Positions 3,001-57,000 of a stretch of 64,000 nt of DNA are shown here, one piece after another. Where the stretch lies: contig CM074520.1 in the NCBI GenBank assembly GCA_037379345.1, positions 3,782,001 through 3,846,000 on the forward strand. Direction: 5' to 3'. The number at the start of each line of letters is the position of its first letter. Position 1 is the stretch's first letter. This DNA comes from Perna viridis. Its lineage: Eukaryota. A program made the position numbers.

Positions 3001-6000
3001 GCAAAGTTACACATGCCAAAAAATGTGAAGGTACATGTATAGAAGAGCCACATTAACTATCTGGAGGTAAGTTACACATGCCAAAAAATGTGAAGATACA
3101 TGTATAGAACTATCACCTTGACTATCTGGAGGTAAGTTACACATGCCACAAAATGTGAAAGAACATGTATAGAACTATCACATTAACTATCTGGAGGTAA
3201 GTTACACATGCTGCCACAAAGTTTAGAGGTACATGTATATACTGTAAACAAACTTATTTTCATGGATGATTTCAGGATATCAGTTCAATTTCACTGCTAT
3301 ATTTTTTGCAAATTACAGTCTGTATACTATGTGTTCTATAATAGATGAAGTAATATGTGGCAGTCAATTTTCACATTAATTTCTTCATTAATTTCTTGCT
3401 CTTGAAGTTTGTGAAAAGTAATCTTTTGTGAAAATAAGTTGAATTTGTATTTCACTGGTTATAAAACTTCTTCCAAATCAACAAGTTGAAATGAAATGCA
3501 AACATTCAGTTGAAAAGCTATGTTACCAAATGGAATTCTGATTTCCAAGAACTAAAAATTCTTTTCACCAAACTATAAAATTAAGATTCCCAAACTGTAT
3601 TTGTTTTATTTCCAAAGTCTCCTTTTTCTTTAAAGAATCAAAGAACCTTGATGAGATATTTTGTTGGTCACCCCCTTTTTAGAAAAACCAAATTATTGTG
3701 TATTTGAGATGCAGCTAATAGCTTTATTGTTCCTTGATGAATTACTGTACACCAAAGGATTTCCTTTTCTCAGTAGTGAAACAGCTATATCATGCCTTGA
3801 TGAATTTTCCAATACTTGGCTGTTTTTATTTTCATGTCATTTTATACTTGAATTGGTTTTATATAAGGTTGAGTAGAAGAAGGTATGGAAAAGACACTAC
3901 TAAATAAATTATGTGAACTGTAATATCAATCTTTTAAATAATTAATTGGACAAAAATCTTAAGTTTGTCCTTTAAGATAGACTTTCATTAACTAAGCATG
4001 TGTAAAGTGTTAACTACACAGCTATTTATTGGTACTCTTAAGTAAGTACAATGTCATAAATTGTCATACATATCAACTACAGGTACATATAAGGTAAATT
4101 TATAGTTCTTTGTACTTCATAGAGAACCCAGATATATATTCATTGCTGAATGACAGTGATGCCTCTATTTCTTAAAAGTATTTCAATGGTATCTAGGTAA
4201 AAATGTTTTATATTAGGATGCAGTTTCTGTGATATTATCTTGGTTTAAAACTGTCGAATCGATTTTTAAATTTCTTTGCATTTGGAAAAATAAATTGGAA
4301 CTACCCATGCAACTGAAACATTTCACTTTGAAGCTGTGATCACTTAATCATTGGATTGAAACATTCCCATTGTAGACGTGATCACAATTAATGGTAAAGT
4401 GGTTTAATGGGCTTGGATAAATAAGGGAGATAACTCTAATTTACCTGTCTTCTAATGTCTTTTGGGAAATGTTAATACTTTCACTAAGTAATGATGGATC
4501 AAGACAAATCAATATGATATTGAAAGGTAATCAACGACAACCTAGACTCTATTGTACCCTTACAAGACGAAAAAAATCAAATTGAATTCGAATTGAGATT
4601 TTCTTTATATATGCTGAATACCAAGCGACGGTGAACAACTATAATTTTCTCGTGAGTGGAGACTTGATACTATTGAAAAAGTTCAATTGAAAACATGATT
4701 TGAATATGAATTAATATGACTTTTAAAGATTGAAGGCAATGCTCTGTGTAGCGCAGCGTCATTTTCTCATACTAGATATAGGAAAATGACATTAAATAGT
4801 TTTGTTGCTAAAATGGGTGTTTAAGTTCTAGGGGAAGGAAACAATGGATATTTTCAAGGATATTGACCCATGGGATGTATTGAAAGCTAGAATAGAATTA
4901 AGGTAGGTTGTCTTAGTGTAGGCCAATTCCAGGTGTTTACAAAATCATCAGTTTTATGATAAATTGCATGTTGATTAGCTGGAGTGCTTTCCCATTAAAA
5001 CGAAAACAATTTTTGAAATGATATGTGAAATTAAGTTCAGTCAGTACTACTTTGAGTTATTACAAAACAGAAACAAATTTGAATCATGTGATACAATTTT
5101 ATAATGATACTACATTAGATACTAGTACATGAAGTGACGGATTTTTAATCTTTATGTAATATTAATGCCATTCATATGTTTTTGAGATGAAAAGTTAAGA
5201 AAAGAGTTTGAATTGATAACATCTTTACCCATGTAATATGGTACATTTACATGTATATAATGTTTAATAGTATAATCTTCAGATCGAAAAACTGTGTGAA
5301 TTGTAAGAATTGCATACTCTGGTATATATTTCACTGTGTGCTTTATGAAATTGTACACATGTACAGTATGTATCTTCGAAATTTTAAATATTTAATACTG
5401 TGAAAGTACTTTCATTCATGGATATCAATTATTGTGGGTTAGGGAAGAAAAGTCAGTATGTAGATTCTTGAATTCTTGGGTTAAACACGTTCATCGTCCG
5501 TCGTACAAATGAGTGAAACATTTCCTTTTCATTGGCAACTAAATTGATTGTCAGGCCAGTGAAAACCATGAAAATTGGTACCCCACAAACAATGATTAAC
5601 TTTCACAGTAAGCAGTGCCTATGGTATTAACTAGTCACCCTAATAGTAAATTATTAAGATCAGATACAAAATATTTTTGTGATACGAAATTGTTCACCTT
5701 AATTGATAAAATGAAGAAAATCACTTAATAAAAAGACTTTATATTGTTAAGAGGTTATTTAAGAATTCTCATTTAATGAGTGAATTTGCTCTTTCATTTA
5801 TTAAACATACTCCAGGTAATGGAAAAATTATCAGAAAGATAATAATTTTAAACATTTACCATTAGTATCCTAGGAGCTATTTAAAACTATTATAAATGTT
5901 CTCTATTGAATCAAGGCAGGAAGTTAACCATTAATTTTTTAGATAAAATGAATTGTTAGAAGGGATAATTTACCATTATTGGGTGCCTAAATGAATATCA

Positions 6001-54000: not shown

Positions 54001-57000
54001 TCAAATCTGTCTACTTATGACCATGTGATAGTAATAATTCTAGTCTATGCAGTTCTTTATTGAAAGACCTTTTCAGATAAATTGCAAAGAATTTAACAAG
54101 ACTTTCAAAAGATCAAAATTCTGCCCTTGTGATAACATCAATATATGCAGTGTAAATGTTTGTAAACACCTGTCAAATCGGTATGGAAGGAAGGACAAAA
54201 ATAGGCTGGACACAGGGTCTCCCTTCCTGATACCTTTATTTACATTTTATAAATCATTGTCACTTGCTACGTAGGTAGTTGTACATGTCTGCCTGAAATC
54301 TTGTAATATTACATAATCTGTTTGGATTTTACCTTGTGTTCTTTGTAATAACTTAGTAGGAGAAAGATTGGAGTTTTATTGAAGGTTAGTCTTTTTTGAG
54401 AAGTATGTTATTGAGCTTTATCTTCCGAATGAAAAAGTATTGTAAGCCTATCATAAGCTTCCTTTATCTACCAAGATCCTGAATATTGCTTTAAGATATA
54501 AAGATAACTGTCAATATACATTTATCAATTTATATTGCAAAACATTAGGTCAATCATTGTTTATCTGTGAAAGTTTTGCAGGTTTGGTTCTGCAGATCAT
54601 CTTGTGTTGAATTTTTGACTTTTCTTGGTTTTGCATCTAAACTTGACAATGCATCCATTTTGCTAAGTTGACGAAAAAATTGTTGACAGTCCTACAAGTT
54701 GATAAAGTAGACTTTTTTTAGTTATCCATTAATTTCTGTGGGAATTAAAATTGTAAAAAAGGCATGTGATTAAATAAAGCTTTTTTTAATTGAATGTGCA
54801 TTTAACTGAAATACCTAGCATGAATACATGTCTGCTTACTTACAATGGTTGATAAATTGTATATCATTAAAATCTTAACAATGTCTTTTTAAATGTTTAA
54901 TTAATGTAATGACATGTTTTACCTGTCAGCACAGGTATAGAATTTTGAACATTTGGCCAGGTATTCAATACACATTAATTTCTGAATATGGGCAGCAAAC
55001 AAATTGATACTTAGCTGTCCTTAATGACAAATTGTATTATTTTCCCTGGGATGTTTACTGGTCATTAATAGAAATAACAAATAGGCTATATTAAAAATTT
55101 TCTGTTTTTATAGCACCATGCAAAGTTATAACAAAATCCATGTTTTCTAATCAGACACGATTTCCAACATTCAAAAACCAAAAAAAATTGTGCATGCTTT
55201 ATGACTAATAAGCATTTTACATGCACTAAACTTGTATCTTTACATATTAGATATGACACCTCCTGTCAAGCGCTTAGTTGAAGTAGAATTTAATCTCAAT
55301 GGGGACAGTAATGGCTTGTAAAGTCAGTTTTCCATGACATGTACATCATGTTTAAATATATTTGTTGGTGGTGAATGAAGCATTGTTTTAGGCCACTTAG
55401 CATACATTTTATGTCAAGATTAAGAATTTGCATTTCATTTCATACATTGAACAAGATATTTTTGATGATATTTTGTCATCTTTTGTACTTCATTGTTTAT
55501 CTCCATAAGTATACTTCTACTATATCCATTTCAATCACTGTAAAACATTAGTTCCAATAAGTTTTAATAAATATTGACTATTCAAATCTTAGAAATATGA
55601 GAGTGCATTGAAATGCTATGAAATCTTCAAGTCTTGAAAACTTAGGCAAGCCTGAACTTTATATAATGTACTGAAACAATTTAAAGTATTTGAGGGGGAG
55701 TGATTGATATCCTTGTAATAGATTTGTATGCAATCAATAAAATCTGATTAAAAATGTCTCTTTCTACTACAAGTACTTTGAACATGGAGACATGATAGAA
55801 ACACGAAGATTACAGAGATGTTTTTAGAAAGCACTTTGTAACCTTTTCAATGTAACTTTAAAAAAAAGAATTGACATGCTGATTATGATTACATGGCCTT
55901 ATAAGGAGGTTTATGACTACTTGGTCTCTAAAGCTATTTACATTAACTTTATATTTCCTCTTTTCAGTGGTTCTCGATCCAGAAGTCAACACCAACATCA
56001 TCATAAAGAACCTTCCCCTTCAATCAGTTCATCTACTGATGCCAGTCTTCACTCGTACCATACAGTAGACAGTAAGGAGGTGAAGGAGGGCACCAGTAAA
56101 CAGTATGACAGCGGAAACAGCCAACTACCAATGGAACAAGTGACTACACCAACGACTAAAGTCAAAGAATGGCCCACAATGGCTGATCTGTCTCAACAAA
56201 GACAAAAACAACATAACAGTAACCATGGTTACTTTAATTCAAATCTGTCTCCATCAAAATCTTCACCAAATCTTGATAAGGAAGAAGCATATAATACAAG
56301 AACTGTGAATTATTCTTCTCCGTTGATGAATAAATCTAGTCCAAATATCCATGACGATGTACGAAAATCATCCTCATCTTCATTGAACACATCTAATCAA
56401 AAGTGGTCTTCACCAAGTGCCTACCACAAATCACCGAAACCGTATTGTAACTTTTACCCTGCCTCTTCATACTCCAAACATAATTCAAATGACTATCAAA
56501 ATTTACAGGAAATACAGCAAAGCATCAACCAAAGTCCATCACATGGTTTGCCTCCACCAATAGAGAAAGAGGAATGTGAGCCAGAACTCCAAGGACTTAC
56601 GAAGGGAGATAATCGACCGTTATGTTCTCCTCCCGCACCTCCAACTAGAGATATTTCAAGTTTAAAATATGTGCCATTGACTAGTCAGAGCCATGCTAAA
56701 TATCCATCATGGCCCGTAACGCAACCAAGTGCTGATACAGAAAGTGGCGAGCCAATCAATGCTCCTCTTAGTATTTACAACGAACATAATGCAAATCAAA
56801 ACAATGTACGGTCCTTAAAGGACAGGAATAGTCCAAACTCTGATCGCAAAGCAAGTGATAGAAATGCTAGTGATCCTGGATTTAAAAAGCCTATTCCATT
56901 TGCTGTGTTTTTAAAACGACCTGATCAAAAACATGTTGAATTTGGAGGTCAGTTGGAAAATAAGAAAAAGGACAACAATGCTAAAATGGATGAATTTTTT

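What the first reader, a model, noticed from the sequence alone, without database searches (positions are those of the whole stretch)
4844..54270. Array of phase-matched alternative first exons: variable N-terminus cassette architecture in a Shroom-like gene
Seen: downstream of the PDZ exon (ends phase 2) there are ATG-initiated frames running straight into phase-2 donors at 4844-4902, 10392-10780, 18922-18938, 22127-22170, 28053-28132, 48815-48852 and 54047-54270. All are in frame with the phase-2 acceptors at 31631 and/or 55968. Several have a purine at -3 and a CpG-retaining patch upstream. Established: vertebrate Shroom3 has PDZ-containing and PDZ-less isoforms, and Drosophila Shroom has A/B isoforms. 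Inference: this locus may use as many as seven internal promoters to swap unrelated N-terminal peptides onto a constant body, as plectin does. The short candidates could be chance hits, since I searched for phase 2 and one donor in three fits by chance. The exons at 10392, 28053 and 4844 are the strongest.
Basis: partly seen in the sequence, partly recalled or inferred. Interest (0 to 1): 0.72.

Follow-up and report, generated by a model that had tools for sequence, protein, structure and literature searches.

The report
One real alternative first exon, not seven
A bivalve Shroom gene has one conserved internal first exon that should make a protein lacking the PDZ domain, as Shroom genes of other animals do, while the other six proposed first exons look like chance.

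Summary
All seven ATG-to-donor frames exist at the stated coordinates, and each is in phase with the acceptors at 31631 and 55968. The backbone is also right: PDZ exon 2295-2443, a 177-nt exon 31631-31807, and a large exon 55968-59457.

Such frames are common in this AT-rich intron. At the weakest donor quality among the seven, the + strand holds 97 phase-2 frames, 86 and 87 in the other phases, and 61-78 per phase on the antisense strand. Simulated sequence gives 85 +/- 9.

Only 10392-10780 stands out:
- It is 389 nt long, a length reached in 1 of 100 simulations.
- It has GC 0.47 and 12 CpG.
- Its codon score ranks 1 of 270.
- Three unnamed relatives keep the same open frame, with an aligned Met and an end at the donor (E about 1e-8 library-wide).

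RefSeq oyster models show the same design. Ostrea edulis X2 joins a PDZ-less first exon to the equivalent second exon.

Verdict: an ordinary PDZ-less Shroom isoform exon. The plectin-like array of seven is not supported. No transcript data could be consulted.

The parts
2295..2443 (+). Exon for the second half of the PDZ domain. Acceptor AG is at 2293-2294 and donor GT at 2444. It ends with two codon bases (phase 2).
   Evidence: Pfam PDZ_6 E 1.4e-9 and PDZ E 2.5e-7. Sequence read. tblastn of Ostrea edulis X1 residues 70-104 to 2340-2444, E 1.9e-8. The first half of the PDZ domain was not found in 1-2294, so it lies upstream of the window.
2439..3211 (+). Tandem array of 61-65-nt units that copy the end of the PDZ exon plus its donor. 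It is interrupted by an interspersed repeat at about 2624-2991. Copies near 3067, 3132 and 3197 keep the GGAG|GTAAGT junction.
   Evidence: TRF row 2997-3211, period 65. Family D4. The copies translate to a near-repeat of the exon's last ten residues.
10392..10780 (+). Alternative first coding exon: ATG at 10392, 129 codons plus 2 bases, donor GT at 10781. It encodes a Ser/Pro/Arg-rich peptide that is predicted disordered and ends in a conserved helix.
   Evidence: Longest ATG-to-donor frame; 1 of 100 simulations reaches 389 nt. GC 0.47 and 12 CpG. Codon LLR 86, rank 1 of 270. An in-frame TAG lies directly upstream, and the other two frames are closed. Relatives P0052, P0053 and P0054 match at E 8e-9 to 1.3e-8 and are aligned. 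tblastn of P0054 19-168 to 10392-10781, E 3.7e-24. AlphaFold2 gives a helix at 114-126.
10746..10928 (+). Four tandem 45-nt units that copy the last 35 nt of the 10392 exon plus its donor.
   Evidence: TRF period 45, 4.1 copies, 92% matches. Family D3. Sequence read. Reading through the first donor meets TAA at 10788-10790.
31631..31807 (+). Constitutive 177-nt exon, phase 2 in and phase 2 out. It is the common acceptor for the PDZ exon and for the 10392 exon.
   Evidence: Sequence read. tblastn of O. edulis X1 residues 103-164 to 31626-31805, E 2.6e-19, 63% identity. Codon LLR 16.9, which 0 of 2000 null frames reach.
55968..59457 (+). Large body exon of 3490 nt with a phase-2 acceptor. It ends at CAG|GTAAAA in phase 0.
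   Evidence: Open frame 55828-59478. 23 relatives, including O. edulis 'Shroom2-like isoform X3' at E 6.6e-88. Donor read. No Pfam family.
4844..4902 (+). It has a good donor, ACAATGG context, and a CpG patch upstream.
   Evidence: Donor score 6.0. 9 CpG in the 500 nt upstream, 96th percentile. GC 0.32. Codon LLR rank 146 of 270, and 27% of null frames score as high.
18922..18938 (+). It lies between the arms of an inverted repeat.
   Evidence: Arms 18826-18896 and 19009-19079, 77% complementary (I7). Donor score 0.84.
22127..22170 (+).
   Evidence: GC 0.32. Codon LLR rank 179 of 270, and 51% of null frames score as high.
28053..28132 (+).
   Evidence: Codon LLR 8.6, which 0.6% of null frames reach. 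It ranks 7 of 270, tied with frames inside interspersed repeats at 2801 and 16989. GC 0.35 and 2 CpG upstream.
48815..48852 (+).
   Evidence: 0 CpG upstream. Codon LLR rank 217 of 270.
54047..54270 (+).
   Evidence: Donor score -0.13, and T at -3. A length of 224 nt is reached in 45 of 100 simulations. Codon LLR rank 264 of 270. No Pfam family.

Best explanation
The window holds the 5' half of a bivalve Shroom-family gene on the + strand. Shown: the body is the PDZ exon 2295-2443, then exon 31631-31807, then the large exon 55968-59457. The 29-kb intron after the PDZ exon holds one further protein-coding exon, 10392-10780. It starts at a conserved ATG and ends in the same phase as the PDZ exon. 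Inferred: transcription starting inside that intron, either just upstream of 10392 or at an unseen non-coding leader exon, splices 10780 to 31631. The result is a PDZ-less isoform whose N-terminus is a 129-residue disordered Ser/Pro/Arg-rich peptide ending in a conserved helix. This is the long/short isoform design known from human SHROOM3, from fly ShrmA/B and from RefSeq oyster models. The other six ATG-to-donor frames are most likely chance products of an AT-rich intron, where short open frames and GT(A/G)-type words abound.
For: Backbone: Pfam PDZ_6 at E 1.4e-9. The oyster X1 N-terminus maps to 2340-2444 (E 1.9e-8) and to 31626-31805 (E 2.6e-19). The large exon has 23 relatives, and the named ones are Shroom-like. 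Exon 10392: at 389 nt it is the longest of 485 frames on both strands, and 1 of 100 simulations reaches that length. It lies in the most CpG-rich 500-nt window of the 64 kb and has GC 0.47. Its codon LLR is 86, rank 1 of 270. The library-wide search gave 6 hits at E <= 0.001. One was the window's own ORF. Three were short ORFs of 77-168 aa at E 8e-9 to 1.3e-8 that align from the Met to the donor with 35 invariant columns. Their ORFs stop 0-1 codon after the residue that matches the window's donor. A phase-2 GG|GTAA or GG|GTGA donor would give exactly that (inference). P0053 and the large-exon relative P0033 both list a longest contig of 231,468 nt, which suggests that exon and body are linked in that relative too. 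Precedent: O. edulis X2 (XP_048773715.2) has a 40-residue non-PDZ N-terminus joined to the equivalent second exon. Saccostrea cucullata X2 (XP_062609161.1) has another first exon joined straight to the large exon. O. edulis X3 starts inside the large exon. Chance level of the rest.
Against: I could see no transcript, junction read or TSS datum for this species, so the splice from 10780 to 31631 and the internal promoter are inferred. The donor GG|GTATGT scores only 1.7 on my generic matrix. There is no CpG-rich patch upstream of 10392, only 2 CpG in 500 nt. There are 13 upstream ATGs within 300 nt. Sequence homology between the window's exon and the oyster X2 first exon is not demonstrable. 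hhalign aligned only 7 columns at probability 2.4%. Shuffled queries reached the observed local score in 551, 66 and 551 of 1000 trials. The oyster exon is therefore a positional analogue only. The codon test also scored the true PDZ exon negative, at -18.9, so it is blind to some real exons and cannot exclude the short candidates. 28053 passes that test at 0.6%. 4844 has a good donor, good start context and a CpG patch. Oysters show at least three kinds of 5' end, so more than one internal promoter here is plausible.
Confidence: 0.66

Rival explanations
1. One reading: the locus is a plectin-like array in which four or more of the seven frames are real first exons, each with its own promoter.
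For: All seven are phase-matched. Oyster RefSeq models show three kinds of non-PDZ 5' end across two species. 4844 and 18922 have CpG-richer upstream flanks, at the 96th and 93rd percentiles. 28053 has a body-like codon score.
Against: There are 97 phase-2 frames of equal donor quality on the + strand, with 86 and 87 in the other phases and 85 +/- 9 in simulations. Five of the six have intron-like GC and no codon signal. 18922 lies inside an inverted-repeat element. No window sequence resembles the Saccostrea X2 first exon; the best tblastn E was 0.76, and that hit was inside the large exon.
Confidence: 0.05
2. The 10392 frame is a separate small gene nested in the intron. It would encode a 132-residue disordered protein that ends at TAA 10788-10790, and it would not be a Shroom exon.
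For: Gene callers list it and its relatives as complete ORFs of 132-168 aa that end at a stop. It has no Pfam family. No longer protein in the 5.8-billion set contains it: 0 of 1152 candidates scored.
Against: It lies on the same strand as the host gene. Conservation runs up to the GG|GT position, and the stops follow within 0-2 codons, as a phase-2 donor gives. Its phase matches the 31631 acceptor exactly. O. edulis X2 shows a first exon spliced to the equivalent acceptor. Its composition is like the Shroom body exon. The blank is weak evidence, because the annotated oyster isoforms exceed the 2000-residue ceiling of that search.
Confidence: 0.1
3. There are further internal promoters, but their first exons are not the ones the reader listed. 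Examples would be a non-coding leader spliced to 55968 with translation from the Met inside the large exon (as in O. edulis X3), or a short coding exon spliced directly to 55968 (as in Saccostrea X2).
For: O. edulis X3 starts at an internal Met of the large exon. The ORF calls P0002 and P0003 also begin at a Met at that region. Saccostrea X2 skips the second exon. The 177-nt exon is symmetric, so skipping it keeps the frame.
Against: No homologue of the Saccostrea X2 first exon was found in the window. Non-coding leaders cannot be recognised from sequence alone. No phase-2 frame in the intron begins with Met-Gly.
Confidence: 0.25

Closest known systems
Human SHROOM3 long and short isoforms from TSS1 versus TSS2/TSS3
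   Same: An internal transcription start gives a protein that lacks the N-terminal PDZ domain but keeps the body (passages of PMC10722951).
   Different: Here the PDZ-less form would carry its own conserved 129-residue leader peptide. No transcript evidence was seen for this species. ASD1 was not detected in the window, and ASD2 lies outside it.
RefSeq models of oyster Shroom-like genes (Ostrea edulis X1/X2/X3; Saccostrea cucullata X1/X2)
   Same: The exon plan and junction positions are the same. The PDZ exon or an alternative first exon joins the conserved second exon, and another first exon joins the large exon directly.
   Different: The oyster alternative first exon encodes 40 residues against 129 here, and it shows no demonstrable sequence similarity. 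The window's exon has relatives only in three unnamed records.
Drosophila Shroom ShrmA and ShrmB isoforms
   Same: One gene gives isoforms that differ at the N-terminal side and are used in different places (passages of PMC3926966, which cites Bolinger et al. 2010; I did not read that paper).
   Different: From those passages I did not see how the fly isoforms arise or whether a PDZ domain is involved. The comparison is one of kind only.
Plectin-type arrays of many alternative first exons
   Same: Several first exons would splice to one common acceptor.
   Different: Only 1 of 7 proposed first exons passes any test beyond chance, so the defining multiplicity is not shown.

Membership tests
Shroom family protein | N-terminal PDZ domain (present in Shroom2/3/4-type long forms) | tested here: met
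   The second half of a PDZ domain lies at 2295-2443: PDZ_6 E 1.4e-9, above the curated cut-off. The first half lies outside the window.
Shroom family protein | ASD2 domain (Rho-kinase binding, Pfam PF08687) | not testable with these tools
   No ASD2 is in the window. The full O. edulis X3 protein gave no hit downstream of 59457. The O. edulis relative of the large exon (E 6.6e-88) carries PF08687, so membership rests on orthology of the large exon.
Shroom family protein | ASD1 domain (actin binding) | tested here: not met
   Pfam found 0 families in the 1169-residue large exon at E <= 1. That an ASD1 model exists in Pfam is my recollection. ASD1 is also lacking in some accepted Shroom proteins (recalled).
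Alternative first exon or internal promoter giving a PDZ-less isoform | A coding exon that begins at its own ATG, with no usable in-phase acceptor, and ends in the phase of the exon it replaces | tested here: met
   For 10392-10780, an in-frame TAG lies directly upstream, there is no phase-compatible AG, and the other frames are closed. Length mod 3 is 2, as for the PDZ exon.
Alternative first exon or internal promoter giving a PDZ-less isoform | The exon is under coding constraint in related species | tested here: met
   This holds for 10392 only: three relatives at E about 1e-8 with an aligned Met and an aligned end. The six short frames could not be tested, because no mollusc genome collection was open.
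Alternative first exon or internal promoter giving a PDZ-less isoform | Its own transcription start, and spliced transcripts joining it to the common acceptor | not testable with these tools
   No RNA-seq, CAGE or cDNA resource for this organism was available.
Plectin-like multi-promoter array | Many (more than three) independently verified first exons on one acceptor | tested here: not met
   1 of 7 exceeds chance. There are 97 equally qualified phase-2 frames against 86 and 87 in the other phases. The six others rank 7 to 264 of 270 on codon score.

The most novel reading that the evidence does not exclude
At least two of the six short frames are real first exons, most likely 28053-28132 and 4844-4902. 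Together with 10392 and the PDZ promoter, this mollusc Shroom gene would then have four or more promoters that place unrelated N-terminal peptides on one body. A side reading is also not excluded: the tandem copies of the exon end plus donor behind both verified upstream exons (2439-3211 and 10746-10928) may act in choosing between the two donors that compete for acceptor 31631.
Probability: 0.06. Interest if true: 0.45.

Novelty: new member of a known kind. Interest (0 to 1): 0.18.

Why it matters
The finding adds one well-supported exon to a bivalve Shroom gene model. It also shows that the split into PDZ-containing and PDZ-less isoforms, known in vertebrates and annotated in oysters, holds in this lineage too. 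Here the PDZ-less form has a lineage-specific conserved leader peptide. That is useful for annotation, and it gives a defined peptide, the conserved C-terminal helix of the leader, to test for localisation. It does not change how Shroom genes are understood. The check also shows that phase-matched ATG-to-donor frames in long AT-rich introns are no evidence on their own.

Tried and rejected
1. Longer proteins containing the 10392 peptide: 0 of 1152 candidates scored.

2. Homology of the 10392 exon to the O. edulis X2 first exon was rejected as unproven. hhalign gave 7 columns at probability 2.4%, and shuffles reached the score in 66-551 of 1000 trials.

3. A window homologue of the Saccostrea X2 first exon was not found; the best E was 0.76, inside the large exon.

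4. tblastn of 22 relatives of the large exon against the window gave no hit outside the large exon better than E 0.051.

5. Pfam on eight further ORFs or exons, including the 54047 peptide, gave nothing at or above a curated cut-off.

6. Rfam at gathering score gave 0 matches, and the tRNA scan gave 0 genes. No SINE-type RNA gene therefore explains the CpG patches.

7. I asked whether the conserved helix of the 10392 peptide fits the actin-filament motif VxxLxxxFE described in PMC13364712 (passages). By eye it does not, and that paper reports no motif-positive orthologues in Mollusca.

8. Hits P0055 and P0056 (824 and 509 aa, 8 and 7 matched stretches, E 3.8e-6 and 8e-4) were neither fetched nor used. 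I take them for low-complexity matches, which is an inference.

9. Literature: 'Shroom' plus 'mollus' gave 7 papers. By title and abstract start, none is about mollusc Shroom isoforms. An earlier search was badly framed and uninformative. PMC7573561 was seen in the listing only.

10. Not done: conservation of the six short frames in related mollusc genomes. No supplementary files were requested.

11. The exons were searched one by one. I did not build or search a joined spliced model.

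
Full report
**What the window is.** The window is 64,000 bases with no N. GC is about 32% and CpG observed/expected is 0.22. The + strand carries the 5' part of a bivalve Shroom-family gene.
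- A 50-residue open piece at 2295-2444 is the second half of a PDZ domain (Pfam PDZ_6 E 1.4e-9).
- That exon runs from the acceptor at 2293-2294 to 2443, with GT at 2444, and leaves two codon bases.
- The 1169-residue frame at 55968-59457 found 23 relatives in the 5.8-billion set. The named ones are 'protein Shroom2-like isoform X3' of Ostrea edulis (E 6.6e-88, carries Pfam ASD2), a Lottia hypothetical protein, and Lymnaea and Nucella proteins. The closest, at 66-68% identity over 95%, are unnamed single-exon ORF calls.
- The exon at 31631-31807 is 177 nt, takes one base at its start and leaves two at its end. It matches residues 103-164 of O. edulis isoform X1 at E 2.6e-19.

The window is molluscan, not human.

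**Checking the observation.** Every one of the seven intervals begins with ATG, is open, has length mod 3 = 2, and is followed by GT. Six of seven have a purine at -3.

To test whether this exceeds chance, I listed every GT in 2450-55960. I scored each with a generic donor matrix, whose frequencies are recalled and approximate. For each of the three phases I asked whether an ATG-initiated open frame runs into that GT.
- The antisense strand has 76, 78 and 61.
- One hundred first-order Markov simulations of the intron give 96, 79 and 85, with sd 8-10.
- Requiring a purine at -3 leaves 42, 43 and 37.
- Using only the five donor words that the seven candidates show gives 57, 80 and 81 on the + strand and 68, 72 and 55 on the - strand.

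Phase 2 is not enriched, and the seven are a selection from roughly 80-100 equivalent frames.

**What separates the candidates.**
- Length: 10392-10780 (389 nt) is the longest of all 485 frames on both strands, and only 1 of 100 simulations reached it. The 224 nt of 54047-54270 was reached in 45 of 100.
- Composition: known exons have GC 0.39-0.47 against about 0.31 for intron. 10392 has 0.47 and 12 CpG, and its surroundings tie for the most CpG-rich 500-nt window of the 64 kb. The others have 0.32-0.37, apart from the 17-nt 18922.
- Upstream CpG patches exist for 4844 (9 CpG, 96th percentile) and 18922 (8 CpG, 93rd percentile) only. 10392 itself has just 2 CpG in its upstream 500 nt.
- Codon usage, trained on the large exon against intron: 10392 scores 86 bits, rank 1 of 270. 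28053 scores 8.6, reached by 0.6% of stop-free intron frames of that length, but ranks 7 and is tied with frames inside interspersed repeats at 2801 and 16989.
- By the same score, 18922, 4844, 22127, 48815 and 54047 rank 20, 146, 179, 217 and 264.
- The codon test is one-sided. It scores the true PDZ exon at -18.9, so a low score does not exclude an exon.
- 18922 lies between 71-nt inverted-repeat arms at 18826-18896 and 19009-19079, which looks like a small foldback element.

**Conservation.** The 129-residue peptide of 10392 was scored against 1.84 billion representatives. Six proteins reached E <= 0.001:
- the window's own ORF;
- three short ORF calls of 77, 146 and 168 aa at E 8.4e-9 to 1.3e-8;
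- two long proteins with 7-8 matched stretches, which I set aside unexamined as likely low-complexity matches.

The three short ones align with the window's peptide at 50-64% identity with 35 invariant columns. The last 25 residues are nearly identical.

In the two relatives that reach the N-terminus, a Met aligns with the window's Met. tblastn of P0054 residues 19-168 covers 10392-10781 at E 3.7e-24.

All three ORFs stop at or one codon after the Gly that spans the window's donor. A phase-2 GG|GTAA or GG|GTGA donor would produce exactly that. This is an inference, because I could not see their DNA.

P0053 and a relative of the large exon (P0033) both list a longest contig of 231,468 bases. 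That suggests, but does not prove, that exon and body are linked in that species too.

In the window an in-frame TAG sits directly before the ATG, no in-phase acceptor exists, and the other two frames are closed. The exon can therefore code only as a first coding exon.

AlphaFold2 on the four-sequence alignment gives a disordered chain (mean pLDDT 59) with one helix at 114-126 (pLDDT about 80-85) over the conserved end.

**Precedent in annotated relatives.** Cluster look-ups gave the RefSeq isoforms, and I read their N-termini.
- O. edulis X1 (2301 aa) has the PDZ domain followed by the equivalent of the 31631 exon.
- O. edulis X2 (2237 aa) replaces the PDZ part by a 40-residue peptide joined at the same junction.
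- O. edulis X3 (2011 aa) starts at a Met inside the large exon.
- Saccostrea cucullata X2 (2168 aa) has yet another first peptide, joined directly to the large exon and skipping the 177-nt exon.

Alternative first exons on these two acceptors are thus the annotated state in oysters. Two or three kinds are modelled, not seven.

The oyster X2 first exon is only a positional analogue of 10392. The single shared motif of 6-7 residues next to the donor is not significant (shuffles). Nothing in the window resembles the Saccostrea X2 exon.

**Published knowledge.**
- Passages of a SHROOM3 review say the human gene has three transcription start sites. TSS1 gives the long PDZ-containing form, and TSS2 and TSS3 give a short form without PDZ that still functions (PMC10722951).
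- Passages of a Drosophila paper name ShrmA and ShrmB isoforms and cite Bolinger et al. 2010 (PMC3926966).
The plectin comparison is recalled and was not checked.
- A search for 'Shroom' with 'mollus' listed 7 papers. By title and abstract start, none is on mollusc Shroom isoforms.

**Most likely mechanism.**
- Shown: a conserved, ATG-initiated coding exon lies in the first long intron, in the phase of the PDZ exon, on the gene's strand, and with body-like composition.
- Inferred: it is transcribed from an internal start and spliced to 31631. The result is a PDZ-less Shroom whose leader is a phosphorylatable disordered peptide with a conserved terminal helix. The six other frames are chance.
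- I put about 0.66 on this whole statement. Within it, I put about 0.8 on 10392 being a real first coding exon of this gene, about 0.1 on a separate nested small gene, and about 0.05 on the seven-fold array.
- Further promoters of the oyster kinds are quite possible (about 0.25) but cannot be found from sequence alone.

**Limits.**
- No transcript data or mollusc genome collection was available. Conservation of the six short frames and all splice junctions therefore stayed unchecked.
- Exons were searched one by one. I left out the step of joining them into a spliced model.
- No supplementary files were consulted.

**Verdict.** This is a new member of a known kind and of low general interest.

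Noticed in passing
window 2439-3211 and 10746-10928: Both verified donors that feed acceptor 31631 head a tandem array that copies the exon end plus the donor. Behind the PDZ exon the units are 61-65 nt, and three copies keep GGAG|GTAAGT. Behind the 10392 exon there are four 45-nt units that keep the GG|GT junction, the last one as GTGTGT. Arrays cover about 4.5% of the window. By my own rough arithmetic, two of four donors lying in arrays has a probability of about 0.01. Whether these copies act as decoys or as regulators of splicing is unknown.
   Followed up: partly
window 2664-2991, 16740-17111, 35046-35359 (inverted), 49160-49307: An interspersed repeat family with a 38-nt tandem head and a tail that is 93-100% alike between copies. 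One copy splits the tandem array behind the PDZ exon. It resembles the satellite-bearing foldback or SINE-like elements common in bivalves; that comparison is recalled.
   Followed up: no
window 34796-35095 (+): A 99-codon open frame in a CpG-rich patch (11 CpG per 500 nt) next to a repeat copy. It has no Pfam family above cut-off. It is probably a fragment of a mobile element.
   Followed up: partly
window 18826-19079: An inverted repeat with 71-nt arms, 77% complementary, 112 nt apart, in the style of a foldback or MITE element.
   Followed up: no
window 52467-53539 and 23733-24153: Two large minisatellites lie inside the introns. One has 29 copies of a 37-nt unit, and the other has 14 copies of a 30-nt CT-rich unit. 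The second creates several spurious open frames of 90-190 codons on both strands.
   Followed up: no
window 10731-10772 (residues 114-126 of the 10392 peptide): The only predicted structured element of the alternative leader is a helix over the most conserved residues. The motif is nearly identical in the three relatives. It does not fit the VxxLxxxFE actin-filament motif of PMC13364712.
   Followed up: partly
window 4344-4843: There are nine CpG in the 500 nt upstream of candidate 4844, the 96th percentile for this CpG-poor window. No second copy of this stretch was found in the window. It may be a young insertion or an unmethylated regulatory patch.
   Followed up: no
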